Shown: positions 19,917 to 47,588, numbered from the stretch's first letter. The stretch is DNA of 64,000 bases from Candidatus Poseidoniaceae archaeon (GCA_938084675.1 CALKGM010000014.1:2454-66453); one strand, 5' to 3'. A program made the numbers and translations. Notes: generated from the sequence alone by a model not told the origin.

Positions 19917-20148
19917 AAATTTAGATGGGGATAAGAGGATATGAATGTTCGTACAAAATTTGACGAAATATACGAAATCCGATTGAAATTTACCGGATAA
20001 GAAGCATAAAAACCTCAAAATTTCTGTGAAGTGTCCGATATGAAAATGAAAAAGAAGGTAATCCGCATAATGAGAAAACACTTGATATCATCTCCTTCCA
20101 GCCCGTTTGACCGCTTTGCTCATAGGTTACTTCGGTCGCCACGCCAAC

Positions 20149-25118: not shown

Positions 25119-25631
25119 TCAAGACGACCGTTTAGCCTTTTGAGCCAACATATGTTCGCGAATGGCCTTCGCTTTCTCCCATTCGCTCTTTTCGTCATCT
25201 GTTCCCGGCGTGTATTGGGGAATCGGGATTGGCCGCATCATTGAATCAATCGCTACAAAGAAAAAGTAACCCTCGCAAATAATCTTCTTTTCCCAAGTGG
25301 CCTTGCTCATCGTGTAAGCCGTTACTTTGGTACACGCCGTATGGCTGCTGGTGAAGACGACTTCTCCAGTCACTTCCAAAAGGTCACCTTGTCGTGCAGG
25401 GGCAATAAAGGTCAACGTGTCTATCGAAATGGTGACAAACTCGCGGTGTGCAAATTTGGCACAAGCGATACCTCCTGCTTTATCCATGAGGGAAAGAAGC
25501 CGACCGCCAAAGAGGGTGTTGTAGGCATTGGTGTCTTGGGGAAACACTTCTTCAATGAGCGTGACGGGTTCAGTAGAGTAAGGGTCCATGTTTCTCCCAA
25601 GGCGTTCTCCCTCATAACTCATGTTAAACAA
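25119..25631 (-). CDS. Hotdog-fold acyl-CoA thioesterase (YciA/ACOT-like)
   Basis: FPQDTNAYNTLFGGRLLSLMDKAGGIACAKFA...VTISIDTLTFIAPARQGDLLEV is the acyl-CoA thioester hydrolase pattern. Confidence 0.7.
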   Translation of the reverse strand: MFNMSYEGERLGRNMDPYSTEPVTLIEEVFPQDTNAYNTLFGGRLLSLMDKAGGIACAKFAHREFVTISIDTLTFIAPARQGDLLEVTGEVVFTSSHTACTKVTAYTMSKATWEKKIICEGYFFFVAIDSMMRPIPIPQYTPGTDDEKSEWEKAKAIREHMLAQKAKRSS

Positions 25632-25723
25632 TAGGATGTGAAATCATTCTTTATTAAAAGGCGATGACAGGAGAGCGACGAAGTTTTATGTGGATGAATC
25701 CTCCGGAGAGCGTAGGTGACACC

Positions 25724-34985: not shown

Positions 34986-35068
34986 TTCTAACATCACTTT
35001 CGGCTAAATCACTAAGGTGGTCAACTGGCGCTCTAAGGGCCGTTTTCAAAGGCAACACTCAAAGGCTT

Positions 35069-35086
35069 GGTGTAGCGCACTACACC
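35069..35086 (+). promoter_or_regulatory. Perfect 7-bp hairpin/palindrome GGTGTAG-cgca-CTACACC upstream of fabI
   Basis: Ends 22 nt before the fabI ATG and just upstream of the GGAG ribosome-binding site. Confidence 0.25.
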
Positions 35087-35107: not shown

Positions 35108-35899
35108 ATGCTGAGTTTAGAAGGGAAAACAGCGTTTGTCTTCGGCGTAGCTAGCGAAGACTCCATCGCTTGGGCTATTTGTCAACAACTTGCAGCAGCA
35201 GGAGTGACCCTCTACCTGGGTTATCAGAAGCGATTCATGAGCCGCGTGTTCCAATTGAAGGACCAACTTCCATCAATCGGAGGATTCTATCCTCTTGATG
35301 TTGCATCAGATGCGACCACACAGGAATTCTTCGATGCCTTCGCTCAAGACCATCCTGGCAAGAAAGCAGACATTCTCATCCACGCCATTGGATTTGCCCC
35401 AAGAGCATGCTTCGACCGCCCGATTCTCTTTGTTGAAGGAGAGGACATCAATACGGCAATGACTATTTCTGCAAATTCGTTACAGCGATGTTTGAAACAC
35501 GCCCTACCTTACTTGAATCCGGGTTCATCCACGGTAACGTTGACGTATGCAGCCGCAAACCGATATGTCCCAAATTACGGTATCATGTCCATGGCTAAGG
35601 CTGCTTTGGAATGCTGGACGCGTGAACTTGCATGCCATCTCGGCCCTGAAGGTCACCGAGTGAACGCCATTTCATCTGGGCCTATACGGACCATTGCAGC
35701 GGGGGGCATACCCGGATTTGACCGAATCTTAGACCATGTTGAGGCCAATGCCCCTCTCCGGAGAAACGTCAGTCAACAGGATGTCGCTGGTGCAACACTT
35801 TGGCTCTCCAGTCCACTTTCTTCTGGAGTTACGGGCCAGTGCATTTACGTTGATGCGGGCTACTCAATTACGATGGTGCCGGAAAGTATCATGAATTAA
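35108..35899 (+). CDS. fabI: Enoyl-[acyl-carrier-protein] reductase, FabI type
   Basis: LEGKTAFVFGVASEDSIAWAI, YxxxxxK region (MSMAKAALE) and RVNAISSGPIRT are the FabI-subfamily SDR pattern. Its stop lies 1 nt before the megasynthase start. Confidence 0.8.
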   Translation: MLSLEGKTAFVFGVASEDSIAWAICQQLAAAGVTLYLGYQKRFMSRVFQLKDQLPSIGGFYPLDVASDATTQEFFDAFAQDHPGKKADILIHAIGFAPRACFDRPILFVEGEDINTAMTISANSLQRCLKHALPYLNPGSSTVTLTYAAANRYVPNYGIMSMAKAALECWTRELACHLGPEGHRVNAISSGPIRTIAAGGIPGFDRILDHVEANAPLRRNVSQQDVAGATLWLSSPLSSGVTGQCIYVDAGYSITMVPESIMN

Positions 35900-35900
35900 G

Positions 35901-38900
35901 GTGAATAACATGACGATTACCACTCAAGACGGCAAGGCATGCGAGGGTCTCGAACAGGGCCCCTTTGAACCGATTGCGGTCGTGGGCGTGGGCGCTCTGA
36001 TGCCTGATGCCCCGGATATTGACGCCTTTTGGCAGAACATCATTGAGAAAAAAATCAGTATTGCGCCCCTGCCTGAAGGGAGGTGGCCAGGGCCCGTCAA
36101 TCACTTTTGGAAAGAAGGAGGTCCTGGGCAACACACCGAGGGATTCACCTACTCAAAAATCGGTGCTCTCGTCAAAGGTGATGAGTTTGATTGGCGCAGA
36201 TGGCGTCAACCTCCTGGGACGCTCCCTCAGATTGACCCCTGTCAACTATGGGCGGTCACAGTTGCGGCCGACGCAATAGAGCACGCAGGTTACGGTGCTG
36301 AGACAAAAGACATCGACCGCTCCAAAACTGGAGTTGTTTTCGCGAATGCATTGGGTGGAGAAAACCGAAATCTCTCCAACATACGTGTTTGGTCAAACCA
36401 CACGAAAGAAACCGCTATTTCTCACGGGATGCCTTCAGGGAATGCTGAATCCTTTGTAGCGAACATCAACGAAGGAACTCCGCGTGTTGACGAAGACACC
36501 ATGCCTGGCGAACTCGCAAACGTTGTTTCGGGTCGCGTTGCAAATCTCCTTGACTTGCAAGGGCCGAATCATGCCATGGATGCGGCATGCGCATCATCAA
36601 TGGCTGCTGTTTTGGATGCATGCAGATTGCTCCAAACCCGCCAAGTCGACGTGATGCTAGCCGGAGCAACAGACCGGACGATGGATCCAGCCACCTTCGC
36701 TAAATTCTCAGCCATCGGGGCGCTCTCTCCAACCCATTCATCTCCGTTTGATGCTCGTGCGAATGGATTTGTGATGGGAGAGGGTGCAGGCGTATTGGTC
36801 CTCAAGCGGTTGAACGATGCAATCGAGTCCGGCGATGAAATTTACAGTGTCATCAGAGGTATCGGCGGTTCTTCTGACGGACGCGGTAAAGGCATCACGG
36901 CACCAAGTCAAAGGGGGCAGATACAAGCTATCGCTCGGGCTTACAATCAAGCAGGTTATCCCGCATCTTCTGTAGAATTGGTCGAGGCTCATGGAACTTC
37001 AACAAAGGTTGGAGATGCAACAGAATTGTCAACACTATCTCGCCTTTGGACGGGTCTTGGTGGGACTGGGAAGGTAGCAGTTGGTTCAATTAAATCTCAA
37101 ATTGGCCACCTTAAGGCTGCGGCTGGAATTGCAGGAATCATGAAAACGGTCATGGCGTTGCATCACCGCACCATACCTCCAAGTGCAAATTTTGAAACTC
37201 CCAATCCTACAGTTGATTGGTCCAACATACCGTTTTTCGTACCGACCGAGGCGCTTGAGTGGCCTAGGCCAAGCGATAATCCCCGACGTGCTGGAGTTTC
37301 CGCATTCGGGTTTGGAGGGACCAACTTCCACATCGCTCTTGAGGGATACGAACCTGATGTGCATCGCCCTCTTGCTTCAGAATGGGAGATGCGCTGGAGC
37401 GCTTATTCTCGTTCTGCACCAAAGACTATGGCGGCTTCAATCCTTGATGTCAACGCCACCCCGTCAATGAATCATGAAGCGTTGAAATCCATCGAAGGGG
37501 GTCTCCTCCTTCTTTCTTCAGCCAGTGTCGGAGGATTGAAGGATGCTCTTGCGGCCTTAGAATTTACAGGCGCACGGTTTGATGAAGATCCCCGAGGACG
37601 CAGACTGTCAGAAGCCCTTCAAACGGCGAGCCAATCCTATGATGCAAAGGCCGATGCTAGAATGGCCCTTATCGCTACATCTTGGGCCGAATTTGACAAG
37701 AGGGTAGGCTTGGCTCTCAAGGCGATGGATGATTCTGAAAAGTGGGGATTCCTTCAATCACAAGGCGTTCTTATCAGTTCTGAACCTTCATTGCCTGCTG
37801 AAGCAAAGGTTGCTCACATGTATCCCGGTCAAGGAAGCCAATATGTTGGGATGACCAACGACCTCGTCAAACGCTTTTCACCTGCTGCCTCGGTTTGGGA
37901 ACAAGCCGACATAACGATGGTTGATGTGTTGGACGGAGAGTCACTCTCCAGTTTCGTTTTGAGAGATTCGTTAAGCGCTGAAGAACGAACAGAGGCTGAG
38001 CATAAACTGAAGCAAACAGAGTATACTCAACCCGCCATGCTTACTGCTGACCTCGCCATTGAACGCACTCTGAATGCGTTCGGACATCACCCTGACATGG
38101 TCGCTGGCCATTCCCTTGGAGAATATGCGGCCTTGATGTCTTCGGGAATCTTGGACATGGACGGGGCGCTCCGAGCTGCTGCTGCCCGCGGCACAGAAAT
38201 GGGCTCGGTTGAAATTGACGACAAAGGGCTCATGGCAAGCGTAACAGCTCCCTATGAAGAGGTTGCAGCAATTTTGGAATCGACAGAAGGTTACGTCATC
38301 GCAGCCAACAAAAACTCGCCTAAAATGACCGTAATTGCGGGAGAAACAGAACCCGTTCGGGCAGCTATGGCTGCTTTTGAATCCAAGGGATTCAACAGTG
38401 TTGAACTCGCAACATCTCACGCCTTCCACTCTCGCATTGTCGCTCCTGCAAACGAGCCATTGCGTCGGTTCTTAGAGGGGCTAGAAATTCGCTGGCCTAG
38501 CATTCCAATTACGGCAAATGTGGACGGGAGTTTCTATCCGATGGACGGAGCAGACTCGAAGGCTGGAATTTTGAACCAACTTGCTCCTCAAATGGCCTCT
38601 GCTGTTGAATGGACCAAGCAAATTGAAACCATGTACGATGCAGGAGGGCGTGTTTTCCTTGAAGTTGGGCCAAAACGTGCTCTGACGATGTTTGCCATGC
38701 AAATTCTAGAGGGCCGCCCACACGTACCCATCATGTCCAATCACCCTAAACAAGGTGGTATTGCGACATTCCTGACGGCGTTGGGGGCGCTTGCGCTCGC
38801 CGGCCGTCCACCTCAATGGCCGGATTCCAATTCAGAAGTCTTGAGTGAAGCCTTCAGGGCTGGGCCTATTGAAGCTCACCAGGAACAGGTAACGGCGACG

Positions 38901-41900
38901 GGAGCATCCTCGGCTGAGCTTGAATCTCTCCGCGTTAGGGCAAGACCTCTTCCAAACGGCGGTGGCTCTGCAATTGCATCCGTTCAATCCATAGTTCAAC
39001 CGCCTGCGATTGACAGCGAGTTTGCTCTTGAGCGAGCAATTCGTGCTTATGTCGGCGACCGGATTGGAACATTCAGCAATTATCCTGCATCGTTCTGTCA
39101 CGGGCACGTTATGCTTCGTGAAGGCTTGGGCTTGAATGAATCTTCCATCCAACAAGTGATTTCAACACTGGCTGCAGAAGCAGAAACCGATGGGGAATAC
39201 GATGCGAGCAAGGCCCAAACAGCCGGCGATCTGGCTCGTTGGGTACGCATGCCCCCTTCTTCATGGACGCCAATGTCTACCGTCACTGCTCCTGCTCAAT
39301 TGCAACAACAACACATCGTTCAAACAACTTCTGCAGTGCACTCTCGTTCTGGCTCAACCAGAGATGTCGACCCGTTCGTAATCACTGGAGTCTCCCTTGG
39401 ACTGCCCGGTATGGACCGAGTCTTTTCAGAAGATACATTTGAGAAACTCGTACGAGGGGAAACATGCATCAGTGAGGTCTCTGATGAGTATAAACAACGA
39501 CTGTTGGATAAGAACATTGTACGCTTGATCAAAGGTCGGGACGGCTCAGTGAATATGGACCAGGCAACCGTATTCGGAGACATCCCTCAACTTGCAGGAA
39601 TCAAAGGTGCGTTTGACCTCTCCGAAGAGTTCGGAATTGACCCGAAAGCAGTCTTGGCTTGGGATATCAGCACTCAGTTGTCGGTTGCTGCTGGATTGTT
39701 AGCACTTCGCGACGCAGGTATACCGCTAACTCCAGTTGAACAAGTTGGAAAAGGGGGTCTTCGGCTCATTAGAAACTGGCAGGTTCCACAAATCCAACGT
39801 GAACGAACCGGTATTGTATTTTCATCGTGTTTCCCAGGTTTGCAAATGGCTTCAAAGCATGCAAAAACCAACGGAGATGATGGCGAAGGGCGATTTGACC
39901 GTCGTTATCTCTTCCAAGCCCTCAACATGGGGCATTCACAATTTGCCCAATATACGGGAATACGTGGGCCCAACACAACAATCAATCTTGCATGTGCATC
40001 TGCTACAGCAGCTTTTGGTGTTGCTGAGGACTGGCTTGAGAACGACAGAGTGGACCGCGTTGTCATCATCAGTGGAGACGACGTAACCGGTGACGACCTT
40101 TGGGAATGGATTGCAGGTGGATTCGCAGCATCAGGAGCGGCTGCAACGAACAATGTTGTTGAGGAGACGGCTTTACCCTTTGACCGCCGCCGTAATGGAC
40201 TTATTCTCGGAATGGGGGCCGCAGCGTTTGTTGTTGAACGTCATTCTGAAGCCAAGCAACGTGGTGTTCAGCCGATTGCAGAATTCCTCGGCTCCACAAC
40301 TGCAAACTCTGCCTACCACGGAACTCGGCTTGACGTCGAACATGTAGGTGAAATCGTCAACGGTTTCATCACTTCAATGGAACAACGATGGGACATTAAC
40401 CGACATGAAATCGCTCCCAAGACGGTCTTCTTTTCCCACGAAACCTACACTCCGGCACGTGGTGGTTCTGCTCAATCCGAAGTCAAAGCACTCCGAGAAA
40501 CCTTTGGAGAATCTACGGATAAGCTCGTCATTGCCAATACTAAAGGATTCACAGGACACCCAATGGCGGTAGGTATTGAAGACGCAAGCATGTTTTATGG
40601 AATGCTCACTGGGCGTATTCCCCCGATTGCTAATCACAAAGAACAGGACCCCGAATTAGGTGATTTGAATCTTTCAAAAGGTGGCGACTACCCTGAACTT
40701 CAGTATGGTCTTCGTTTTGCAGCAGGGTTTGGTTCACAAATTGCACTTTCGCTGGTTCGTCGTTGGCCCATTGAAGGTGAGCGAATCAACGGGGCAGTCT
40801 TGTTGGCTTGGGCCAGGAACCTTGCGGGAACAGATGACGTAGTGATGCGGGTCCTTCAGAATAAACTCGTAGCATACGTCAATGGTGATGACAATCTCCA
40901 TGGCGGGGTACAAGGAGATACTTGGCAACCTACAGAGGACTGGGAGGGTAAGCCATCGATTCAGCCCGAAGTGCCCGCTCCGAACCCTGTACATGAGCCC
41001 GCTCCGAGTCCAGTGGTTGCACCTTCCTCTCCATCCGCACGGGCAGTCGCTGCTCCGATTGCAACCGATGAATCCACCGTTCAAACGGTGATTGATGTCG
41101 TTGTGACTCACACTGGATATCCGTCTGACTTCATTGAGTTGGACCAAGATTTAGAGGGTGAACTCGGCATTGATACCGTTAAGCAAGCGGAAATTATGGC
41201 CGACATTAGAGAAAAATTTTCACTTCCAGTGGATGAAGATTTCATCCTATCAGACTATCCAACGTTGAATCACATGATCTCGTACATTCAACAGATGACG
41301 GGGGGGGAAGTTCCTGCACCTCTTCCTCAACCGCCCGTATCTTCCTCAGTTGCGGCTAAAGAGGTCGTTGCGGACATGAAGCCATTGGCTTCGCCCACAT
41401 CGGTAGTAGACGACGCATCCATGCGAGACATCGTCGTTGAAGTTGTCGTTGAACATACAAAGTATCCAGCCGACTTCATTGAGTTGGACCAAGATTTGGA
41501 AGGAGAACTTGGTATTGATACCGTCAAACAAGCGGAAATCATGGCGGATATCCGAGAACGTTTCTCTCTTCCAATCGATGAAGACTTTGTTCTCTCGGAT
41601 TATCCAACCTTGAACCACATGATGGGTTACATCCAAAAGATGCAGGGAGGGACTGTCCCAACACCAGAACCACCTGCTGCTCCAGCAGGATATGTTGAGT
41701 CCACTCCCGCTCCTGCTGAGGTTGTCACATCAGTACAACCGCCCGTAGCAACAGGGACTAATCCCGATATTGAAGCAGTTCTTATCGAAGTTGTCGTTGA
41801 GCATACTGGTTATCCTGCCGACTTTATTGAAATGGACCAAGATTTAGAGGGTGAACTCGGCATTGATACTGTCAAACAAGCGGAAATCATGGGGGATATC

Positions 41901-44705
41901 CGAGAACGGTTCACGCTTCCAGTCGATGAGGACTTTGTTCTCTCTGACCACCCAACCTTGAACCATTTCACTGCCTACATCATCAAAATGACGGGTGGCG
42001 TATCTTCGGATGCTCCTCTTCCGGTTGAACCAACTGAGGAGTCCCCAGCAATTCCCGATGAACACTCCGGAGTATCTTTCGGAACTCGTCGCTGGCAGGT
42101 TGAAGTTGAAGACTGCACCGGTATTCCAGCCCCACTTTCCATCGACGGCACCGTGGTTGTCACTGATGATGGATGGGGGATTGCAGAGGCCTTCTGTCAA
42201 CGTATGGATGCCCGAGGGCTCCATGCAGTCCGTGTTGGGTTTGAGAGTCGTATTCGTGACCCATCCGTTCTTGACGAAGGTGGACGAACCGTCTACAGAG
42301 CAGACCCAGAGCAACCCGAGCACCTCGCATGGATATGTGAACAACTCAAGGCTACATCCATCGGGGCCCTGATTCACATGGCTCCAATAAAAATCGCATC
42401 GGCCCAATGGGAAGAAGATACGATACCATCCTCACAAATTGCTCTAGCTGGTCACGGTTGGTTTGCGTTACTCAAAGAATTGAATCACCATCTTTCTGAC
42501 CAAAAGCCAGCCATCATTGCCTCTGTTACCGCTATGGACGGCCGCCATGGAAACATTGGTGAGCGTTTCAATTCCATTCAGTGTGCTGCCTCAGGCGTGA
42601 CCAAATCCTATGCCTTTGAGCGACCGGACTTGCGGTGTAGAGCAATTGACCTTCATCCGGATATCCTGTTCGAAGATGGAGAGGCTGCAAAGCAAATTGA
42701 ACATGATCTGTTCGAACTTGGCGGAGAAGTTGAAATTGGTTTGGACCGAGATGGGCGACGATGGGCTCTTGTTGCATTTGCCGAGAATCTCGTGGAAGAC
42801 CCCAAATCCTTGACCAAGGAAGATACGTGGCTGGTTTCTGGCGGTGGCTCGGGAGTTACTGCCGCATCGGTTATCGGTGTTGCACAAGCCAGTCCAAATG
42901 CAGGGGCGCACTTCATTCTTCTCGGGCGTTCATCGTTAATTGAATCAACACAATCGTGGATTGGTTGGACCAAAGAGCAACTTTCAGACGAAAAGAATGC
43001 ACTACGAGAACGCCTGGTTGAAGGTTCGGAGAATGGCAAAGTTACCATGGTTGAATGGAATTCTTCATGGCAGAAGTTTACCCGGAGCATGGATGTTTAC
43101 ATCACGATTGACACCATACAACAGACTGGTAATACGGCGGAATATCGTTCCGTGAATGCCATGGACCATGACGCTCTTGTATCTCTTGGAGAAGGACTTG
43201 AATCACCCATTACTGGAATTATCCACGGTGCTGGATTGGAAGACTCCAAACTTGTGAGCGACAAATCTCATGAGATCTTTGACAGAGTTGTGCGTGTCAA
43301 AGTCGATGGATGGCGAGCACTGCTTGGCGCAGTACAGGCTTCTGGCCGAGACTATCCGGAGTTTGCAGCATGTTTCACAAGTGTAGCTGGCCGTTTCGGC
43401 AATGGTGGGCAAACTGACTATGCAGCGGCGAATTCTGTTCTTGATGCAGAGATGTCACGGCTCACTGCAAGTTCCTCATGCCGAGCAGTAGCCATCGGAT
43501 GGACCGGTTGGAGGGATGTCGGCATGGCCACACGTGGTTCAATTGAAGCCGTCTTTGAAGCGGCAGGAATTGAAACGCTTTCGGTTGAAGATGGCGTCAA
43601 GATCTTCGTTGATGAAGCTCTTCGCGGTGGAAAGCGAAGAGTCCTTGGTTGCGGCTCTCTCGGTCTTATGGACCGATTTGATTCGTTCAGGGAGGCTCCG
43701 TTGAAATTGCCCCCCGGTATGGCCGGAACCATTGCTGACCCTGCCCGCTTTCCTTTCATTGACAAGGTATTGAGTCTGGTAGAAGGTTCCCATATGACAA
43801 CGCAATGCACGCTTTCGGTCGAAGACCATCCGTTCCTGACCGACCATGCGATTGACGGTGTCCCATACCACCCTGGTGTTATGGCGCTTGAGATGTTTGC
43901 ACAAAGTTCCCTTCTTTTACGCCCATCAACCTGCTTAGCAGGCTTTGAAGGGGTCACGTTTGGCCTACCTGTTAAACTGATGAAAGGGCCAATGACGGTT
44001 CGTGTAATCGCCCAACTTGACCGTCAAGAAGATGATATGACATGGATAAAGTGTTCTTTAGTTTCGGACCTGACCAATTCCAAAGGGGAAGTGTTCGGTG
44101 AACGAGAACACCACGTTGCGACCGTAAGATTGGTAGAAAAGTGCGAAGACCTTTGTCCATTCCTACAACGAGAAGTCGATGAACTGCCGGCGATTGGAAT
44201 TCCTCCTTCTGGAGAACTCGTCCAAAATCCAGCATTCATTTACATGCGCTATTTCCACGGAGCACGATTCCAATCGCATGGGGGCGTGTTGCGAGGTGTT
44301 GGTGACGAAGAAATGCCTGGGATTGACGGACTGGCTTTGATGCGACACCAGCTCCCTCTTACGGACCAATTCTCAAGTGAATCCAAAGGAGAAGCCGTTC
44401 TATTGGAGGCCCTTCCAATGCTGATTGAAGCCGGTTTCCAAAATGCAGGCTTGGTCGCAATGGAGTCTAAGGGTTTCAGCAGTCTACCGGTTGGTATTGG
44501 ATGGTCTACCATGCTTCGTGTGCCAGAGAACGATGAAACCCTCCGTCTAAGAAGCATACAAACCTCCTCTGATGAAGAAGGTGTTACGGTTCATGATGTT
44601 GTCATTGTTGGTGATGATGATGCCCCGATTCTGGCGATGAAAGGCTTGAGGCTGAAGGCGATGGCTCCAGTTGCTGACGAACAGAAATTCGAATTCAATC
44701 GCTAA
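35901..44705 (+). CDS. Type I FAS/PKS-like megasynthase (PfaA-like), 2934 aa: KS-AT-[ACP-like]-KS-ACP-ACP-ACP-KR-DH
   Basis: A single open frame (GTG 35901 or ATG 35910) containing every domain signature listed in the sub-features below. Confidence 0.9.
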   Translation: MNNMTITTQDGKACEGLEQGPFEPIAVVGVGALMPDAPDIDAFWQNIIEKKISIAPLPEGRWPGPVNHFWKEGGPGQHTEGFTYSKIGALVKGDEFDWRRWRQPPGTLPQIDPCQLWAVTVAADAIEHAGYGAETKDIDRSKTGVVFANALGGENRNLSNIRVWSNHTKETAISHGMPSGNAESFVANINEGTPRVDEDTMPGELANVVSGRVANLLDLQGPNHAMDAACASSMAAVLDACRLLQTRQVDVMLAGATDRTMDPATFAKFSAIGALSPTHSSPFDARANGFVMGEGAGVLVLKRLNDAIESGDEIYSVIRGIGGSSDGRGKGITAPSQRGQIQAIARAYNQAGYPASSVELVEAHGTSTKVGDATELSTLSRLWTGLGGTGKVAVGSIKSQIGHLKAAAGIAGIMKTVMALHHRTIPPSANFETPNPTVDWSNIPFFVPTEALEWPRPSDNPRRAGVSAFGFGGTNFHIALEGYEPDVHRPLASEWEMRWSAYSRSAPKTMAASILDVNATPSMNHEALKSIEGGLLLLSSASVGGLKDALAALEFTGARFDEDPRGRRLSEALQTASQSYDAKADARMALIATSWAEFDKRVGLALKAMDDSEKWGFLQSQGVLISSEPSLPAEAKVAHMYPGQGSQYVGMTNDLVKRFSPAASVWEQADITMVDVLDGESLSSFVLRDSLSAEERTEAEHKLKQTEYTQPAMLTADLAIERTLNAFGHHPDMVAGHSLGEYAALMSSGILDMDGALRAAAARGTEMGSVEIDDKGLMASVTAPYEEVAAILESTEGYVIAANKNSPKMTVIAGETEPVRAAMAAFESKGFNSVELATSHAFHSRIVAPANEPLRRFLEGLEIRWPSIPITANVDGSFYPMDGADSKAGILNQLAPQMASAVEWTKQIETMYDAGGRVFLEVGPKRALTMFAMQILEGRPHVPIMSNHPKQGGIATFLTALGALALAGRPPQWPDSNSEVLSEAFRAGPIEAHQEQVTATGASSAELESLRVRARPLPNGGGSAIASVQSIVQPPAIDSEFALERAIRAYVGDRIGTFSNYPASFCHGHVMLREGLGLNESSIQQVISTLAAEAETDGEYDASKAQTAGDLARWVRMPPSSWTPMSTVTAPAQLQQQHIVQTTSAVHSRSGSTRDVDPFVITGVSLGLPGMDRVFSEDTFEKLVRGETCISEVSDEYKQRLLDKNIVRLIKGRDGSVNMDQATVFGDIPQLAGIKGAFDLSEEFGIDPKAVLAWDISTQLSVAAGLLALRDAGIPLTPVEQVGKGGLRLIRNWQVPQIQRERTGIVFSSCFPGLQMASKHAKTNGDDGEGRFDRRYLFQALNMGHSQFAQYTGIRGPNTTINLACASATAAFGVAEDWLENDRVDRVVIISGDDVTGDDLWEWIAGGFAASGAAATNNVVEETALPFDRRRNGLILGMGAAAFVVERHSEAKQRGVQPIAEFLGSTTANSAYHGTRLDVEHVGEIVNGFITSMEQRWDINRHEIAPKTVFFSHETYTPARGGSAQSEVKALRETFGESTDKLVIANTKGFTGHPMAVGIEDASMFYGMLTGRIPPIANHKEQDPELGDLNLSKGGDYPELQYGLRFAAGFGSQIALSLVRRWPIEGERINGAVLLAWARNLAGTDDVVMRVLQNKLVAYVNGDDNLHGGVQGDTWQPTEDWEGKPSIQPEVPAPNPVHEPAPSPVVAPSSPSARAVAAPIATDESTVQTVIDVVVTHTGYPSDFIELDQDLEGELGIDTVKQAEIMADIREKFSLPVDEDFILSDYPTLNHMISYIQQMTGGEVPAPLPQPPVSSSVAAKEVVADMKPLASPTSVVDDASMRDIVVEVVVEHTKYPADFIELDQDLEGELGIDTVKQAEIMADIRERFSLPIDEDFVLSDYPTLNHMMGYIQKMQGGTVPTPEPPAAPAGYVESTPAPAEVVTSVQPPVATGTNPDIEAVLIEVVVEHTGYPADFIEMDQDLEGELGIDTVKQAEIMGDIRERFTLPVDEDFVLSDHPTLNHFTAYIIKMTGGVSSDAPLPVEPTEESPAIPDEHSGVSFGTRRWQVEVEDCTGIPAPLSIDGTVVVTDDGWGIAEAFCQRMDARGLHAVRVGFESRIRDPSVLDEGGRTVYRADPEQPEHLAWICEQLKATSIGALIHMAPIKIASAQWEEDTIPSSQIALAGHGWFALLKELNHHLSDQKPAIIASVTAMDGRHGNIGERFNSIQCAASGVTKSYAFERPDLRCRAIDLHPDILFEDGEAAKQIEHDLFELGGEVEIGLDRDGRRWALVAFAENLVEDPKSLTKEDTWLVSGGGSGVTAASVIGVAQASPNAGAHFILLGRSSLIESTQSWIGWTKEQLSDEKNALRERLVEGSENGKVTMVEWNSSWQKFTRSMDVYITIDTIQQTGNTAEYRSVNAMDHDALVSLGEGLESPITGIIHGAGLEDSKLVSDKSHEIFDRVVRVKVDGWRALLGAVQASGRDYPEFAACFTSVAGRFGNGGQTDYAAANSVLDAEMSRLTASSSCRAVAIGWTGWRDVGMATRGSIEAVFEAAGIETLSVEDGVKIFVDEALRGGKRRVLGCGSLGLMDRFDSFREAPLKLPPGMAGTIADPARFPFIDKVLSLVEGSHMTTQCTLSVEDHPFLTDHAIDGVPYHPGVMALEMFAQSSLLLRPSTCLAGFEGVTFGLPVKLMKGPMTVRVIAQLDRQEDDMTWIKCSLVSDLTNSKGEVFGEREHHVATVRLVEKCEDLCPFLQREVDELPAIGIPPSGELVQNPAFIYMRYFHGARFQSHGGVLRGVGDEEMPGIDGLALMRHQLPLTDQFSSESKGEAVLLEALPMLIEAGFQNAGLVAMESKGFSSLPVGIGWSTMLRVPENDETLRLRSIQTSSDEEGVTVHDVVIVGDDDAPILAMKGLRLKAMAPVADEQKFEFNR
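35964..37350 (+). other. Megasynthase domain: ketosynthase 1
   Basis: PIAVVGVGALMP, active-site DAACASS (Cys230, codon 36588..36590), EAHGTSTKVGD, SIKSQIGHLKAAAG and FGFGGTNFHIAL. Confidence 0.9.
37809..38700 (+). other. Megasynthase domain: acyltransferase (malonyl-type)
   Basis: YPGQGSQY, GHSLGE (Ser738, codon 38112..38114), and an HAFH motif (aa 840-843) of the malonyl-specific type. Confidence 0.85.
39030..39250 (+). other. Megasynthase segment: cryptic ACP-like helical segment with degenerate attachment motif
   Basis: IRAYVGDRIGTFSNYPASFCHGHVMLREGLGLNESSIQQVISTL...TAGDLARWV follows carrier-protein spacing, but GLNES replaces GxDS. Confidence 0.3.
39369..40770 (+). other. Megasynthase domain: ketosynthase 2 (Cys-His-His retained)
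   Basis: FVITGVSLGLPG, INLACASATAAF (Cys1365, codon 39993..39995), FFSHETYTPARGG and NTKGFTGHPMAVG. Confidence 0.8.
41070..41991 (+). repeat. Three tandem ACP-domain repeats (period 345-348 nt) inside the megasynthase
   Basis: The unit DFIE(L/M)DQDLEGELGIDTVKQAEIM(A/G)DIRE(K/R)F(S/T)LP(V/I)DEDF(I/V)LSD(Y/H)PTLNH occurs three times. The attachment-site position is Thr in each copy (codons ACC 41175, ACC 41520, ACT 41868; aa 1759, 1874, 1990). Linkers are Pro/Ala-rich. Confidence 0.85.
42150..43625 (+). other. Megasynthase domain: ketoreductase (with N-terminal structural subdomain)
   Basis: TWLVSGGGSGVTAA (NADPH Rossmann), SVAGRFGNGGQTDYAAANSVLD (catalytic Tyr/Asn) and IGWTGW. Confidence 0.8.
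43749..44690 (+). other. Megasynthase domain: PKS-type dehydratase (double hotdog)
   Basis: HPFLTDHAIDGVPYHPGVMALE is the HxxxGxxxxP motif, with His2649 at codon 43845..43847. Confidence 0.75.
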
Positions 44706-44716
44706 GCGGTGAGGCT

Positions 44717-45484
44717 ATGGAATCCGATGTCGTTCTCCTCGATGTCCCTCCATCTTTTTCAAAACACGTACGGGTTTATTCAATGCCAATCCGACATTTT
44801 GAGTGTGATGATGTCCCGCTTGCAAATGCCGACGAGGTAGCGACCTTTGCTACTTCAAAGCGAAACGATGAGCATCTCAGTGGAAGGTGGTTGTTGGGAC
44901 ATTGTCTCGGGCTGTGGGGTGTTAAGGATCTCTCCGTACTCGATATTGTACGTGACGAACACAGAGCGCCTCGGGTCGTGTTTTTACAAGGAATGTGGCT
45001 CAATACCCCCCTTCCTTCGTTTTCTATCTCGCACAGTAATGGCCATGTCTTCCTCGCTTTATGTGAGTCTGAGTTTGATATTGGTTTTGATGCTGAACCT
45101 GCTGAACGCTCTCTTGCTTCAAATGCCTTTGATATGATTTCTACAGGTTTGGAATTGGAACAATTACGTATGAATCCTGATTCATCAATGATGTTGTGGA
45201 CCAGCAAAGAAGCCGTGCAAAAAGCAATGCGAAAAGGCATGCATTTGAACCCGAGAGAAATCAAAATTTCAATTGGAGATTTAGAACAAAATATTTCAAT
45301 TGAAAAATCAATAATTCAATTGGGAAATTGGACTCAAAAAGGGTATCAAATGGCTCTCGCCCTCCGCCAAAAACCCTCCGTGTATTTAACCGCTGAAGAG
45401 CGCTTGTTAGAGTCCACTCGCCTCGCTATGCTAGACCGACCTGATTGGGGTGTCGGCTGCAACACGAATCGGAATAACGTCTGA
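44717..45484 (+). CDS. Sfp-type 4'-phosphopantetheinyl transferase
   Basis: FSISHSNGHV, IGFDAEP and WTSKEAVQKAMRKG are the PPTase motifs. GGTGAGG lies 5 nt upstream of the ATG, which is 11 nt after the megasynthase stop. Confidence 0.75.
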   Translation: MESDVVLLDVPPSFSKHVRVYSMPIRHFECDDVPLANADEVATFATSKRNDEHLSGRWLLGHCLGLWGVKDLSVLDIVRDEHRAPRVVFLQGMWLNTPLPSFSISHSNGHVFLALCESEFDIGFDAEPAERSLASNAFDMISTGLELEQLRMNPDSSMMLWTSKEAVQKAMRKGMHLNPREIKISIGDLEQNISIEKSIIQLGNWTQKGYQMALALRQKPSVYLTAEERLLESTRLAMLDRPDWGVGCNTNRNNV

Positions 45485-45487
45485 CGC

Positions 45488-45913
45488 TCAATCCCAAATA
45501 CGGCTTGATTCCCACGGGAGGTTCATGGCGATTCCGAGTTCGGTTAGAATCACGAAGTTGAACAGGAGATAGAGAAGGACGGTTAGGGTTCCAACGAGGA
45601 GACTTGTATTGATGACCCGTTGCCGTTGTCGCTTTGCCTCATCTAAGGTGCAGATCCCTTCGTTTCGGAAGTAAATGACGAGGCCTACCGCCACCATCAG
45701 TGCTGAAGCAACCAGTAGAAGCGGTCTAAACCACCCCATGCCGTTGTACCCCCAATAGAGGTCATCGGATAGCGCCGCCGCCGTCGAGACGCTTGCAAGG
45801 CCAAAGAAAACCAAGACTACACTTGGTAAGCAGCACAACGAGGCCATAAGAGCAGAACCACTGATGAGTTTCCACAATGAGCGCAAATCGCTTGTAGCAG
45901 TCTGCTCACTCAT
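45488..45913 (-). CDS. Small membrane protein with Cys-Cys motif (MerT/MerC-like?)
   Basis: 141 aa with 4 hydrophobic segments. The first contains LCCLPSVVLVFFGLA, which is reminiscent of CC metal-binding motifs in mercury-transport proteins. Confidence 0.35.
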   Translation of the reverse strand: MSEQTATSDLRSLWKLISGSALMASLCCLPSVVLVFFGLASVSTAAALSDDLYWGYNGMGWFRPLLLVASALMVAVGLVIYFRNEGICTLDEAKRQRQRVINTSLLVGTLTVLLYLLFNFVILTELGIAMNLPWESSRIWD

Positions 45914-45950: not shown

Positions 45951-47588
45951 TCAAGAGCAGGAAGAAAAGCGGGCTTCAGTATTGATTGCATCAGCGTATA
46001 ATGAAAGAGGTAGAACAGGCGTTCCATCGGACCACTTGCCCATTTCTGTCAACGTTTCCTCTTCCGTCATGTACTGGAACGCCCAATCAGCGGTAAAGGT
46101 GTCGTTTCGCCCATGCGCTACCAAAAAGTCAGCTTGTGCGTCAAATCGTCGATAGACACCCCAATCCGCTAGTCTGTCGTATGCAGGGTCGGTTTGCAGG
46201 TAATGGCTTGCCACCAGCCTGGGGAATCCATAGAGGTCTGAATGAACTTCTATGAGTTGATTTCGTTCATCAGGGAGTTCACTGAACATCTGCTGATGGA
46301 AAGCTCCGGGGCAAACACCCACACTCATGTCATCTTCAGTCACTGCAATTTGGACCATCGTATCTTCTGGTAAATTGGACAAATCGGGTTGCATTGACAT
46401 CCCCTTTGGTCGACTCGCTGGCGATTCTAATGCTACCACGAGTGCACGAGAACCCCACCCCTTGGCCAAGACTTCATCCAAAGTGATGAACGTGTATGCC
46501 CCTCCCAAACTGTGGCCACCAACCCACAGGGAGGTCGGGTCAATGGTGATGTTTCCTAAGGTAGTATCGAGGGTTGTAGAGCGGTTTTCACCAAGCAACA
46601 TCGTCTCCATATGGTCAATAGCAGCCCGAATGGCTGTGTTACGGTATTCGTGCTGCAAGAAATCTGACGTGCCTTCAAGATCTGTTGCTTCAAAGGATTC
46701 GTAACCATCAGGCCGGAGGTCTGATGGATATTGTAAGAGGGCCACAGCCATTCCTTTGGCTGCCAGATGGTCTATCCAATGTGTGTAGGCGTCAGGGTCA
46801 GGGTAACCAAAACCGTGCAAGAGGATACCAAGCGGAATGGTCTCAACGGGTTTATCTTCGGGAATGAGGGGCAGTGTCACGTGAACACTGAAGACAACAT
46901 CATCTTCCAAATTGCCTTGGATTGCAGCAACATCGCTCGGCATGGGGTATGGTTCAGAAAACCTCATGATTTCATACGGGCCGGGAGTTGAACCGTAACC
47001 AATTGTTGGGGCGTCAGGAGGAGAAGGTGCGAATCCTACCAAAGCAGGGATTCCAGGCATTAACATCCATGCCGCCAAAAATACACCGAAAAGATGAGCA
47101 ACTCTTGCGGATGAAATTCCCTCTGATGCAGTCGTTCTCAATCGCGGCATGCCTCCTCGGAGCAGAAGGAGCCAAAGGAAAACCCAGGCATAGAACATAG
47201 GAAGCATAAGGAAGGCTCCCCTGAGGTAAAACACATCCATTACAAAATGAATCGAGATAAGACCACTCATCAAACCCACGAGCACCAAAAGGCCTTCATT
47301 TGCTTCTCGTTCATATTTGCTTTCTGATTTCCAGCGATTGATGAAGTAGCCAAGAACGGGTACAATCATGAACAGAATCAGCGTTTGTTCTGTGGATGAA
47401 CGAAGGACAACCGTCCACTCCAATGAACGAACAGCATGAGGCCAGATGGCATCGACCGCACCGGTGCCTTGTGCGAGGCGAACAATTACTTCACCTAACG
47501 CAAGAAGGAAGCCCAATGTGAAGAGGACTGGCTGCCAGAAAAACGATGTACGCCAGTACGAACTGGGTATGACGAACTCCTCTTCCAT
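45951..47588 (-). CDS. Membrane-anchored alpha/beta-hydrolase (lipase/esterase-like)
   Basis: The N-terminal ~190 aa are polytopic. The C-terminal domain has the nucleophile elbow WVGGHSLGGAY and resembles chlorophyllase/PAF-acetylhydrolase. Confidence 0.6.
   Translation of the reverse strand: MEEEFVIPSSYWRTSFFWQPVLFTLGFLLALGEVIVRLAQGTGAVDAIWPHAVRSLEWTVVLRSSTEQTLILFMIVPVLGYFINRWKSESKYEREANEGLLVLVGLMSGLISIHFVMDVFYLRGAFLMLPMFYAWVFLWLLLLRGGMPRLRTTASEGISSARVAHLFGVFLAAWMLMPGIPALVGFAPSPPDAPTIGYGSTPGPYEIMRFSEPYPMPSDVAAIQGNLEDDVVFSVHVTLPLIPEDKPVETIPLGILLHGFGYPDPDAYTHWIDHLAAKGMAVALLQYPSDLRPDGYESFEATDLEGTSDFLQHEYRNTAIRAAIDHMETMLLGENRSTTLDTTLGNITIDPTSLWVGGHSLGGAYTFITLDEVLAKGWGSRALVVALESPASRPKGMSMQPDLSNLPEDTMVQIAVTEDDMSVGVCPGAFHQQMFSELPDERNQLIEVHSDLYGFPRLVASHYLQTDPAYDRLADWGVYRRFDAQADFLVAHGRNDTFTADWAFQYMTEEETLTEMGKWSDGTPVLPLSLYADAINTEARFSSCS

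What the first reader, a model, noticed from the sequence alone, without database searches (positions are those of the whole stretch)
35108..45484. Complete ACP-dependent type I FAS/PKS operon (fabI, 2934-aa megasynthase, Sfp-type PPTase) inside an archaeal chromosome
Seen directly: three co-directional genes separated by 1 nt and 11 nt. The megasynthase has intact KS (DAACASS, EAHGTST, GHLKAAAG) and a malonyl-type AT (GHSLGE plus HAFH). It also has a second KS, three ACP-like domains, a KR (GGGSGVTA, YAAAN) and a DH (HxxxGxxxxP). The missing enoyl reductase is supplied in trans by the upstream FabI and carrier activation by the downstream PPTase, so every function of a fully reducing elongation cycle is present. 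The surrounding genes are archaeal hallmarks: Orc1/Cdc6, CDP-archaeol synthase, HTH_10 regulator, DUF359 DPCK and a TBP-fold protein. By established knowledge, archaeal membranes are isoprenoid ethers, and archaea are generally described as lacking ACP and ACP-dependent fatty-acid synthases. The inference is that this organism makes an acyl or polyketide chain of unknown identity and destination, for example a fatty acyl lipid, alkyl lipid or PUFA-like product.
Basis: partly seen in the sequence, partly recalled or inferred. Interest (0 to 1): 0.85.

Follow-up and report, generated by a model that had tools for sequence, protein, structure and literature searches.

The report
Archaeal fatty-acid-type megasynthase operon
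A real, intact three-gene operon for an assembly-line enzyme that should build fatty-acid-like chains sits in the chromosome of a Marine Group II archaeon, belongs to a widespread family whose product is unknown, and carries threonine where every textbook acyl carrier protein has serine.

Summary
fabI (35108-35899), a 2934-aa megasynthase (35901-44705; the true start is probably ATG 35910) and an Sfp-type PPTase (44717-45484) are intact and co-directional. The chromosome is archaeal, from Poseidoniales (Marine Group II). The contig is not a chimera: the same synteny occurs on contigs up to 2.04 Mb, and the operon's composition matches its flanks.

The domain order is KS-AT-KS2-ACPx3-KR-DH. This matches the "Type R" Pfa-like secondary-lipid synthase cluster defined bioinformatically in bacteria in 2011, whose product is unknown. 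It is not a PUFA synthase.

Relatives occur in at least 600 GTDB species genomes. They include many bacteria, other Thermoplasmatota and Asgard archaea. In Asgard relatives an enoyl reductase and the PPTase are fused into the same polypeptide. Three non-homologous reductases (FabI, NMO, an acyl-CoA-dehydrogenase-like protein) occupy the same upstream slot in different lineages.

The most likely function is a self-contained, iterative, fully reducing fatty-acid-type synthase. Its release step and product are unknown.

New here: the phosphopantetheine attachment residue is threonine in all three carrier domains, and in 97% of 1145 carrier domains across the family. The Poseidoniia clade is deep and monophyletic, not nested in a recent bacterial donor clade.

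The parts
35054..35086 (+). Conserved upstream element. It consists of the box AACACTCAAAGGCTT followed by the inverted repeat GGTGTAG-CGCA-CTACACC, 22 nt before the fabI ATG. It is a candidate promoter or operator.
   Evidence: Conserved, with variation, upstream of fabI in ten Poseidoniales loci (alignment A3). The pattern GGTGTN{4,10}ACACC occurs twice in the window against 0.4 expected. Function is inferred only.
35108..35899 (+). fabI: an SDR-type enoyl-ACP reductase (263 aa) that supplies the missing ER in trans.
   Evidence: Pfam adh_short_C2, E 9e-70. All best NCBIfam hits are FabI, but they score below the equivalog cutoffs. T. thermophilus FabI (1ulu) matches at E 3.5e-56 over the full length. 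The Y147/Y157/K164 pattern TLTY...NYGIMSMAK is present. FabI sits in this slot in all 14 Poseidoniia loci, at 73-92% identity.
35901..44705 (+). Megasynthase ORF: 2934 aa from GTG 35901, or more likely 2931 aa from ATG 35910. Domain order is KS1-AT-linker-KS2-ACPx3-psiKR-KR-DH.
35967..37370 (+). KS1, a PKS/PfaA-type ketosynthase (aa 23-490).
   Evidence: Pfam ketoacyl-synt N and C. TIGR02813 PfaA covers aa 24-944. C230/H364/H403 are invariant in alignment A1.
37806..38810 (+). AT, a malonyl-type acyltransferase (aa 636-970).
   Evidence: Acyl_transf_1, E 3.6e-35. FabD TIGR00128, E 1e-55. GHSLGE S738, R763 and HAFH H843 are invariant.
38898..39365 (+). Inter-domain region X (aa 1000-1155), with no recognisable domain.
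   Evidence: No Pfam hit. It is not detectably an ACP.
39369..40775 (+). KS2, a FabF-like second ketosynthase (aa 1157-1625). The 2011 description calls it 'CLF', but it keeps its catalytic residues.
   Evidence: PDB FabF structures match at E 4e-25. C1365, H1513, K1548 and H1553 are invariant in 15 diverse members. H1513 and H1553 are also invariant in 145 KS2 domains.
41064..41993 (+). Three tandem carrier (ACP) domains: aa 1722-1800, 1837-1915 and 1953-2031. The attachment-site Thr codons are at 41175-41177, 41520-41522 and 41868-41870.
   Evidence: PP-binding with three stretches. The motif is GIDTVKQAE. The Thr aligns with the Ser of the DS motif in the PigH ACPs (5y08) and the S. coelicolor ACP (2cnr).
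42078..43580 (+). Structural psiKR region (aa 2060-2300) followed by the catalytic KR (aa 2301-2560).
   Evidence: Pfam KR, E 4e-21. GGGSGVTA is present, and S2494/Y2507/N2511 are invariant.
43728..44702 (+). PKS-type dehydratase (aa 2610-2934).
   Evidence: PKS_DH_N, E 2e-7, and a weak PS-DH hit. H2649, P2658, E2843 and Q2847 are invariant.
44717..45484 (+). Sfp-type 4'-phosphopantetheinyl transferase (255 aa).
   Evidence: Pfam ACPS, 30.2 bits against a cutoff of 25. The sequence alone has no PDB hit. A profile of six family PPTases hits human AASDHPPT (E 9e-13) and Sfp (E 3e-9) over both halves. The motifs FSISHS, GFDAE and WTSKEAVQK are present. The protein is homologous to the C-terminal PPTase domains fused to the Thermoplasmatota, Heimdall and Loki megasynthases.
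45488..45913 (-). Convergent 141-aa membrane protein with a CC motif, conserved next to the operon. Whether it belongs to the system is unknown.
   Evidence: 72% identical in L001 and 63% in L006, at the same position. No Pfam family.

Best explanation
The three genes form one operon for a self-contained, iterative, fully reducing type I fatty-acid-type synthase. It belongs to the 'Type R' Pfa-like family. The host is a Marine Group II archaeon of the Poseidoniaceae.

Proposed mechanism:
1. The PPTase converts the three tandem carrier domains to their holo form, apparently on threonine.
2. The AT loads malonyl units from malonyl-CoA.
3. Two catalytically competent ketosynthases perform the condensations: KS1 (PKS-type) and KS2 (FabF-type). 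They probably divide the work by chain length or by priming versus elongation.
4. KR and DH process the beta-carbon.
5. The separately encoded FabI reduces the enoyl intermediate on the tethered carrier. The result is a saturated, or largely saturated, straight acyl chain.
6. There is no release domain, so off-loading must be done by an unidentified partner such as an acyltransferase or a hydrolase.

The operon is an old, vertically inherited, housekeeping-like part of Poseidoniia genomes, not a recent island.

Shown: the gene and domain content, catalytic residues, synteny, family distribution, fusions and phylogenetic placement. Inferred: activity, Thr modification, full reduction, chain length and the fate of the product.
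For: Domains and catalytic residues are intact and invariant across 15 diverse members.

FabI is genuine (1ulu, E 3.5e-56). It lies about 10 nt upstream of the megasynthase in all 14 Poseidoniia loci surveyed.

Fusions tie the partners together.
- Heimdall P0275 is one chain: NMO(ER)-KS-AT-KS2-ACP-KR-DH-PPTase.
- Thermoplasmatota P0132 and Loki P0368 carry a C-terminal PPTase domain.

The upstream slot holds FabI, NMO or an ACAD-like gene in different lineages. Two of these three, FabI and the FabK/PfaD-type NMO, are known enoyl reductases, which points to enoyl reduction as the shared need.

Acetyl-CoA carboxylase genes flank the megasynthase in Loki, Heimdall, Thermoplasmatota and most bacterial loci. 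These include biotin ligase and BioY, and they indicate a malonyl-CoA supply.

Vertical inheritance is supported by several results.
- Synteny is identical at 77%, 67% and 47% protein identity, on contigs of 2.04 Mb, 180 kb and 3.0 Mb.
- The Poseidoniia clade has bootstrap 100.
- Tetranucleotide r is 0.95, within the window's own range of 0.896-0.959.

The architecture and the downstream PPTase with a P1b' motif match Type R of Shulse & Allen 2011 (PMC3098273).
Against: - No biochemical data exist for any family member that I could find.
- The carrier domains have Thr instead of Ser. E. coli ACP S36T is reported to be unmodifiable by AcpS (my own recollection of Keating et al. 1995), so holo-formation is unproven.
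- No thioesterase, reductase or acyltransferase release domain lies in the operon.
- Most bacterial members have an ACAD-like gene, not a classical enoyl-ACP reductase. The family-wide chemistry could therefore include a dehydrogenation rather than a reduction.
- FabI scores fall below the NCBIfam equivalog cutoffs (227 against 391 bits).
- The tree is neighbour-joining only, without an outgroup.
Confidence: 0.65

Rival explanations
1. The system is a specialised-metabolite PKS or 'secondary lipid' synthase whose product is not a plain saturated fatty acid. Examples are a hydroxy or keto alkyl chain, a polyene, a long-chain alcohol or diol, or a hydrocarbon. FabI would act only in some cycles, or on another substrate.
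For: - KS1-AT is closest to PfaA and PKS models (TIGR02813 845 bits; PKS structures at E 1e-120).
- The family was classed with secondary-lipid synthases whose known members make PUFAs, phenolic lipids and heterocyst glycolipids (PMC3098273).
- Two KS domains and tandem ACPs are typical of such systems.
- No TE domain is present.
Against: - There are no FabA-type DH/isomerase, thioester-reductase, sulfotransferase or type III PKS partners in the operon or next to it.
- A reductase always sits in the upstream slot.
- The operon lies among housekeeping genes with deep vertical inheritance. That is unusual for specialised metabolites.
Confidence: 0.2
2. The system supplies short acyl-carrier intermediates for cofactors, such as octanoyl for lipoate or pimeloyl for biotin, rather than bulk lipid.
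For: - In bacteria and mitochondria, ACP-dependent synthesis feeds lipoate (established knowledge).
- Biotin ligase and BioY lie near the megasynthase in Loki, Heimdall and Thermoplasmatota relatives.
Against: - Biotin genes are expected anyway, as partners of the adjacent acetyl-CoA carboxylase.
- No lipB/lipA or bioF-type genes were seen in any locus examined.
- Three or four tandem carriers and two ketosynthases suggest throughput and long chains.
Confidence: 0.07
3. The carrier domains are not phosphopantetheinylated, because Thr cannot be modified. The system would then be inactive, or would work by an unknown carrier chemistry.
For: - Thr occupies the attachment site in all three domains.
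- A Ser-to-Thr change in E. coli ACP is reported to block AcpS (own knowledge).
Against: - Thr is conserved in 1113 of 1145 domains, Ser appears in 26, and almost nothing else occurs. Some proteins mix Ser and Thr domains. That is the signature of selection for a hydroxyl, not of decay.
- A PPTase is always adjacent or fused.
- All catalytic residues of every domain are under strong conservation.
Confidence: 0.06
4. The operon is an assembly chimera or bacterial contamination. It would then not belong to the archaeal chromosome.
For: FabI and the megasynthase are bacterial-looking genes.
Against: - The same gene order (TBP, TatD, fabI, megasynthase, PPTase, M28 peptidase, CarS, S8 protease) occurs on independent assemblies, including contigs of 2.04 Mb and 3.0 Mb.
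- More than 120 clusters of full-length orthologues (grouped at 90% identity) were found. Those that carry a source name are labelled Poseidoniales or Euryarchaeota archaeon.
- There is no compositional break.
Confidence: 0.01

Closest known systems
'Type R' secondary-lipid synthase gene cluster (Shulse & Allen 2011, PLoS One 6:e20146; PMC3098273)
   Same: - One pfaA-like gene with the order KS-MAT-'CLF'-ACP(3-6)-KR, followed by a PPTase gene.
- The PPTase carries the P1b' motif (hShxH; FSISH here).
- Acetyl-CoA carboxylase is sometimes inserted between the two genes, as in Koribacter and in many loci found here.
- The bacterial phyla match: Acidobacteria, Elusimicrobia and Chloroflexi.
   Different: - Type R was described only in bacteria. 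The word 'archaea' does not occur in that paper.
- No reductase partner was described, whereas FabI is here.
- The 'CLF' keeps Cys-His-His-Lys, so it is a real KS.
- The C-terminal DH and the Thr carrier residue were not noted.
- The product is unknown in all cases.
PfaA of bacterial and thraustochytrid PUFA synthases (PfaABCDE)
   Same: - The KS-MAT-tandem ACP-KR-DH backbone.
- A dedicated PPTase (PfaE).
- A trans or separate enoyl reductase.
- PfaA is the best NCBIfam hit (TIGR02813, 845 bits).
   Different: - The score is below the PfaA cutoff (1010).
- An extra KS sits between the AT and the ACPs.
- There is no PfaB, and no PfaC with FabA-like DH pairs.
- The reductase is FabI (SDR), not PfaD (NMO/FabK type).
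- The carrier motif is GIDT, not GIDS.
Animal, fungal and CMN-type type I fatty acid synthases
   Same: All activities of the saturating cycle are gathered into one system. In fungal FAS and in the Asgard, Thermoplasmatota and Loki relatives, a PPTase is fused at the C-terminus.
   Different: The domain order and evolutionary origin are unrelated. This system has two KS domains, tandem carriers, no TE or MPT release domain, and its ER acts in trans.
PKS cluster noted in a Shark Bay Heimdallarchaeota MAG (Chen et al. 2020, PMC7472256)
   Same: It is probably the same family. [quoted passage not shown]
   Different: That paper reports only an antiSMASH/NaPDoS observation, with no architecture, partners or distribution. 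Identity with the family described here was not tested.
'Putative fatty-acid biosynthetic pathway' of Marine Group II (Villanueva et al. 2017, as cited in PMC6962369)
   Same: The same organisms and the same idea: Marine Group II may make fatty acids and mixed membranes.
   Different: I could not read the 2017 paper. Whether it refers to this megasynthase is unknown. The large Marine Group II genome surveys by Rinke 2019 and Tully 2019 discuss only fatty-acid degradation.

Membership tests
Type R Pfa-like secondary-lipid synthase cluster | A single pfaA homologue with the order KS-MAT-CLF(second KS)-ACP(3-6)-KR. | tested here: met
   KS1-AT-KS2-ACPx3-KR(-DH). Poseidoniales orthologues have 3 ACPs (103 proteins), 4 (15) or 2 (2).
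Type R Pfa-like secondary-lipid synthase cluster | A PPTase gene downstream of the pfaA homologue. | tested here: met
   44717-45484, 11 nt downstream. The same holds in all Poseidoniia loci that extend far enough.
Type R Pfa-like secondary-lipid synthase cluster | A PPTase with the P1b' motif hShxH rather than the PUFA-type (F/S)NxSH. | tested here: met
   FSISH at aa 102-106. The motif definition is from PMC3098273.
Type R Pfa-like secondary-lipid synthase cluster | The KS groups phylogenetically with the reference Type R sequences (Koribacter, Solibacter, Elusimicrobium, Roseiflexus). | tested here: inconclusive
   The reference sequences themselves were not available. Relatives from Acidobacteriota, Elusimicrobiota and Chloroflexota share the architecture and fall in one family with the window protein.
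PUFA synthase (PfaABCDE) | PfaA subfamily model TIGR02813 at or above its cutoff. | tested here: not met
   845 bits against a cutoff of 1010. Only aa 24-944 are covered by the best stretch.
PUFA synthase (PfaABCDE) | A PfaC-type KS-CLF with tandem FabA-like dehydratase/isomerase domains. | tested here: not met
   No FabA-type domain was found in the megasynthase or in any gene of the window that was scanned.
PUFA synthase (PfaABCDE) | A PfaD-type (NMO/FabK-like) enoyl reductase. | tested here: not met
   The reductase here is an SDR-type FabI. The NMO type occurs only in Asgard, Myxococcales and some Thermoplasmatota relatives.
FabI enoyl-ACP reductase | The SDR fold with the Tyr-x10-Tyr-x6-Lys catalytic pattern, and full-length similarity to characterised FabI. 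| tested here: met
   1ulu at E 3.5e-56 over residues 3-255, and the pattern TLTY...NYGIMSMAK. However, the NCBIfam equivalog cutoffs are not reached (227 against 391 bits).
Sfp-type (group II) 4'-phosphopantetheinyl transferase | A two-lobed protein of about 230-250 aa with the GxD(x)E and W/FxxKEAxxK motifs. | tested here: met
   The profile hits AASDHPPT and Sfp across profile positions 18-213. The motifs GFDAE and WTSKEAVQK are present, and D125/E127/E165/K169 are invariant in alignment A2.
Canonical acyl carrier protein domain (PP-binding) | A conserved Ser in the (D/N)S motif at the N-terminus of helix II, carrying the phosphopantetheine. | tested here: not met
   Thr is at that column in all three domains, aligned to the Ser of PigH and S. 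coelicolor ACPs. Across the family the count is T 1113 and S 26 of 1145. The single-sequence AF2 model is too poor to add anything (pLDDT 46.5).
Canonical acyl carrier protein domain (PP-binding) | Actual 4'-phosphopantetheinylation. | not testable with these tools
   This needs mass spectrometry of the expressed carrier domains.

The most novel reading that the evidence does not exclude
Marine Group II archaea, and in parallel Asgard and other Thermoplasmatota archaea, use this megasynthase as their own primary fatty-acid synthase. The acyl chains would feed membrane or membrane-associated lipids. That fits the known absence of G1P dehydrogenase and the presence of G3P dehydrogenase and PlsC-like genes in Marine Group II. 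The carrier domains would be activated by a PPTase that phosphopantetheinylates threonine, a carrier-protein linkage I could not find described anywhere.
Probability: 0.25. Interest if true: 0.92.

Novelty: new variant of a known kind. Interest (0 to 1): 0.72.

Why it matters
Marine Group II archaea are among the most abundant surface-ocean microbes. They have no cultures, and their membrane lipids are unknown. They lack G1P dehydrogenase (PMC6461757), and waters they dominate lack intact-polar-lipid GDGTs (PMC6962369). A conserved, complete, carrier-dependent acyl-chain factory in their core genome is a concrete, expressible candidate for what they make.

The same family is present in Asgard archaea as a single all-in-one polypeptide, which bears on the 'lipid divide' and on how the eukaryotic lineage came to use fatty-acyl membranes.

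Separately, the near-universal Ser-to-Thr replacement at the phosphopantetheine site comes with a dedicated or fused PPTase. If confirmed, it would extend carrier-protein chemistry and provide an orthogonal PPTase/carrier pair.

Finally, the bacterial majority of the family remains a product-unknown system in major soil phyla. In those bacteria the megasynthase sits with an ACAD-like gene, a giant single-chain acetyl-CoA carboxylase and the PPTase.

Tried and rejected
- Literature. Ten full-text searches found no paper describing this megasynthase in Marine Group II and no report of Thr phosphopantetheinylation. They covered Poseidoniales/MGII with PKS, FAS or ACP; Asgard with PKS; the motif IDTVKQ; and threonine phosphopantetheinylation. 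Villanueva 2017 and Lombard 2012 are not held.
- PUFA synthase reading. Rejected: below the PfaA cutoff, no FabA-type DH, no PfaD.
- CLF reading of the second KS. Rejected, because Cys-His-His-Lys is invariant.
- Region X (aa 1000-1155) as a degenerate ACP. No support.
- The 141-aa downstream protein as a hotdog thioesterase. Rejected: it is a membrane protein with no family.
- The 545-aa alpha/beta-hydrolase as a conserved release enzyme. It is present only in close MGIIa relatives, and it is not homologous to the small hydrolases next to the Loki and Heimdall genes.
- Chimera or recent transfer. Rejected on synteny, composition and phylogeny.
- PPTase against PDB with the single sequence. 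Nothing was found; a six-sequence profile was needed.
- AF2. The single ACP sequence gave pLDDT 46.5, which is not usable.

Full report
**1. Observation**

Pfam calls:
- Gene 1: an enoyl-ACP-reductase-type SDR, E 9e-70.
- Megasynthase: KS N and C, KAsynt_C_assoc, AT, a second ketoacyl-synt stretch, three PP-binding domains, KR and a PKS dehydratase.
- Gene 3: ACPS, 30.2 bits against a cutoff of 25.

All quoted motifs are present.

Orthologues begin MTITTQDGK. The true start is therefore probably ATG 35910, which gives 2931 aa and a 10-nt gap to the fabI stop.

**2. Host and contig integrity**

The window carries archaeal hallmark genes:
- Orc1/Cdc6
- CDP-archaeol synthase
- TBP
- an HTH_10 regulator
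- DUF359

More than 120 clusters of full-length orthologues, grouped at 90% identity and 67-97% identical to the window protein, were found. Where a source name exists, they are labelled Poseidonia sp., Candidatus Poseidoniaceae, Poseidoniales or Euryarchaeota archaeon. Poseidoniales is Marine Group II, in phylum Thermoplasmatota.

The same neighbourhood recurs on three independent assemblies. It runs giant protein, TBP, TatD, fabI, megasynthase, PPTase, 141-aa protein, M28 peptidase, CarS, S8 protease.
- A 2.04-Mb contig at 77% identity.
- A 180-kb MGII contig at 67% identity.
- A 3.0-Mb contig at about 47% identity, in reduced form.

Composition shows no break. GC is 0.504 against 0.48-0.51 elsewhere. 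The tetranucleotide correlation with the rest of the window is 0.95, within the range 0.896-0.959 of other 10.4-kb segments. Chimerism and recent acquisition are excluded as far as sequence can tell.

**3. Anatomy of the megasynthase**

- **KS1** (aa 23-490) is PKS/PfaA-like.
- **AT** (aa 636-970) has GHSLGE, R763 and HAFH, so it is malonyl-type.
- **Region X** (about 150 aa) has no recognisable domain.
- **KS2** (aa 1157-1625) resembles FabF (PDB, E 4e-25).
- **Three tandem carrier domains** follow.
- **KR region:** a structural KR-like region, then the catalytic KR.
- **DH** is a PKS-type dehydratase.

In an alignment of 15 members from archaea and bacteria, these residues are invariant:
- KS1: C230/H364/H403
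- AT: S738/R763/H843
- KS2: C1365/H1513/K1548/H1553
- KR: S2494/Y2507/N2511
- DH: H2649/P2658/E2843/Q2847

The second KS is therefore a competent condensing enzyme, not a chain-length factor.

FabI matches T. thermophilus FabI over its full length (E 3.5e-56) and keeps the Tyr/Tyr/Lys pattern.

The PPTase is very divergent, with no PDB hit on its own. A profile of six family PPTases hits human AASDHPPT (E 9e-13) and Sfp (E 3e-9) across both lobes. Its motifs are intact.

**4. The carrier residue**

All three carrier domains read DLEGELGIDTVKQAEIM. The Thr aligns exactly with the phosphopantetheinyl Ser of the PigH ACPs and of the S. coelicolor fatty-acid ACP.

Across 1145 carrier domains of the proteins collected, that column is Thr 1113 times, Ser 26 times and anything else 6 times. 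Some proteins mix Ser and Thr domains, for example STTTTT and STS. A few proteins are all-Ser. No other conserved Ser exists in the domain (consensus).

This pattern indicates selection for a hydroxyl at the attachment site, with Thr preferred. It holds in every lineage examined, bacterial and archaeal. I found no description of it. Whether Thr is actually modified cannot be tested here.

**5. The family**

A search of 1.84 billion cluster representatives with aa 1001-1700 gave 532 hits below 1e-30. Nearly all full-length hits share the order KS1-AT-KS2-ACPn-KR-DH.

Named archaeal members:
- Poseidoniales
- other Thermoplasmatota
- Heimdallarchaeota, Kariarchaeaceae and Lokiarchaeota, the last on a 4.36-Mb contig among ribosomal and exosome genes

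Named bacterial members:
- Acidobacteriota
- Chloroflexota
- Actinomycetota, including an Amycolatopsis isolate
- Elusimicrobiota
- Myxococcota
- Gemmatimonadota
- Rhodothermales
- Binatia
- Spirochaetota

This is the 'Type R' secondary-lipid synthase cluster of Shulse & Allen 2011. That cluster is one pfaA homologue, KS-MAT-CLF-ACP(3-6)-KR, plus a downstream PPTase. It was found in Acidobacteria, Elusimicrobia and Chloroflexi, sometimes with an acetyl-CoA carboxylase gene in between, and its product is unknown (PMC3098273). That paper does not mention archaea.

A Heimdallarchaeota PKS with PUFA-nearest KS domains was noted in passing in 2020 (PMC7472256).

**6. Context in relatives**

- **Heimdall P0275** is a single 3581-aa chain: NMO-type ER, KS, AT, KS2, ACP, KR, DH, PPTase.
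- **Thermoplasmatota P0132 and Loki P0368** have the PPTase fused at the C-terminus.
- **All 14 Poseidoniia loci** have FabI in the slot immediately upstream.
- **About 48 of 60 bacterial loci** have a conserved ~550-aa acyl-CoA-dehydrogenase-like gene in that slot.
- **One Elusimicrobiota locus** has FabI there.
- **A Myxococcales and a Thermoplasmatota locus** have NMO there.

Acetyl-CoA carboxylase subunits, or a giant single-chain carboxylase, together with biotin ligase and BioY, flank the megasynthase in the non-Poseidoniales loci.

Fusion and slot replacement together argue that reductase, megasynthase and PPTase are one functional unit fed by malonyl-CoA.

**7. Phylogeny**

A neighbour-joining tree was built from 2112 well-aligned columns, 59 sequences and 100 bootstraps.
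- Poseidoniia is monophyletic (100), with the 3.0-Mb-contig lineage as a deep sister.
- Poseidoniia is weakly sister (62) to two Myxococcota sequences.
- This group joins a large bacterial clade (91).
- One Thermoplasmatota clade is sister to all of these.
- Asgard (100), a second Thermoplasmatota clade, Elusimicrobiota and Spirochaetota lie on the other side.

Archaeal sequences thus form at least four clades interleaved with bacteria. Inter-domain transfer happened, in an unknown direction. The Poseidoniia copy is old.

**8. Mechanism**

The best-supported reading is an iterative, fully reducing, malonyl-CoA-dependent synthase that makes a saturated or mostly saturated acyl chain.
- FabI acts as the trans enoyl reductase.
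- Two ketosynthases share the condensation steps.
- Three carriers raise throughput.
- The adjacent PPTase activates the carriers.

No release domain exists. A 545-aa membrane-anchored alpha/beta-hydrolase lies nearby, but it is conserved only in close relatives.

A PUFA product is unlikely. The protein scores below the PfaA cutoff, there is no FabA-type DH, and there is no PfaD.

Rivals are a non-saturated specialised lipid, a cofactor-precursor supply, a non-functional carrier, or an artefact. They are weighed in the structured fields.

**9. Verdict**

It is not a singular oddity. It is the Poseidoniales version of a large, catalogued but uncharacterised family, and it differs in using FabI.

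What raises its value:
- The host's abundance and its unknown lipids (PMC6962369, PMC6461757).
- The all-in-one Asgard relatives.
- The family-wide threonine carrier site.

Noticed in passing
window 41175-41177, 41520-41522, 41868-41870 (and 1145 carrier domains in fetched relatives): The phosphopantetheine attachment residue of every carrier domain is Thr (GIDTVKQAE), not Ser. Across the family the count is Thr 1113, Ser 26. Some proteins mix Ser and Thr domains.
   Followed up: partly
window 35054-35086: A conserved element lies upstream of fabI: the box AACACTCAAAGGCTT plus the inverted repeat GGTGTAG-CGCA-CTACACC. It is recognisable across Poseidoniales loci, with changes mostly between the conserved GGTGT and ACACC ends. 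It is a possible operator, promoter or 5' hairpin.
   Followed up: partly
L003 8001-18746 (Heimdallarchaeota, 930-kb contig); L004 8001-19388 (Lokiarchaeota, 4.36-Mb contig): Asgard relatives encode the whole system in a single polypeptide. Heimdall P0275 reads NMO-type ER, KS, AT, KS2, ACP, KR, DH, PPTase. Acetyl-CoA carboxylase subunits, biotin ligase and a small alpha/beta-hydrolase sit next to it.
   Followed up: partly
L005 6275-23331; L007 1337-18034; about 48 further bacterial loci among L019-L088: Bacterial family members have a conserved ~550-aa acyl-CoA-dehydrogenase-like gene in the slot where Poseidoniales have fabI. Many are followed by a single-chain acetyl-CoA carboxylase, which is 1780-1794 aa with an ACC_central domain in the two annotated loci (L005, L007), and then by the PPTase.
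   Followed up: partly
window 45488-45913 (-): A 141-aa predicted membrane protein with a Cys-Cys motif lies convergent to the PPTase, 3 nt away. It is conserved at this position in MGIIa and MGIIb-like loci (72% and 63% identity) and has no family assignment.
   Followed up: partly
window 45951-47588 (-): A 545-aa alpha/beta-hydrolase with a hydrophobic N-terminal half and a GHSLGG nucleophile motif. It is a possible lipase or thioesterase. It is conserved next to the operon only in close Poseidonia relatives.
   Followed up: partly
window 20107-21489 (+): A stand-alone biotin carboxylase (460 aa) lies 14 kb upstream, with no carboxyltransferase or BCCP beside it. In other archaeal lineages the carboxylase genes flank the megasynthase.
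   Followed up: no
window 25119-25631 (-) and 7339-8229 (+): A 4HBT-family hotdog thioesterase (170 aa) and an enoyl-CoA hydratase are present in the window. Either could touch acyl-thioester metabolism, but they are not linked to the operon.
   Followed up: no
window 25664-31552 (+) and 50015-55630 (-): Two giant ORFs: 1962 aa with only a weak CARDB hit, and 1871 aa with a subtilase S8 domain. They flank the region and are syntenic in relatives. They are probably surface or secreted proteins.
   Followed up: no
window 35901-35910: The longest-ORF start (GTG 35901) adds three residues (MNN) that are absent from the close (77-97% identical) orthologues compared. ATG 35910 is the likely start.
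   Followed up: yes
L080 2210-2971 (Elusimicrobiota): One bacterial family member also has a FabI (50% identical to the window's) in the upstream slot. The FabI solution is therefore not exclusive to archaea.
   Followed up: no
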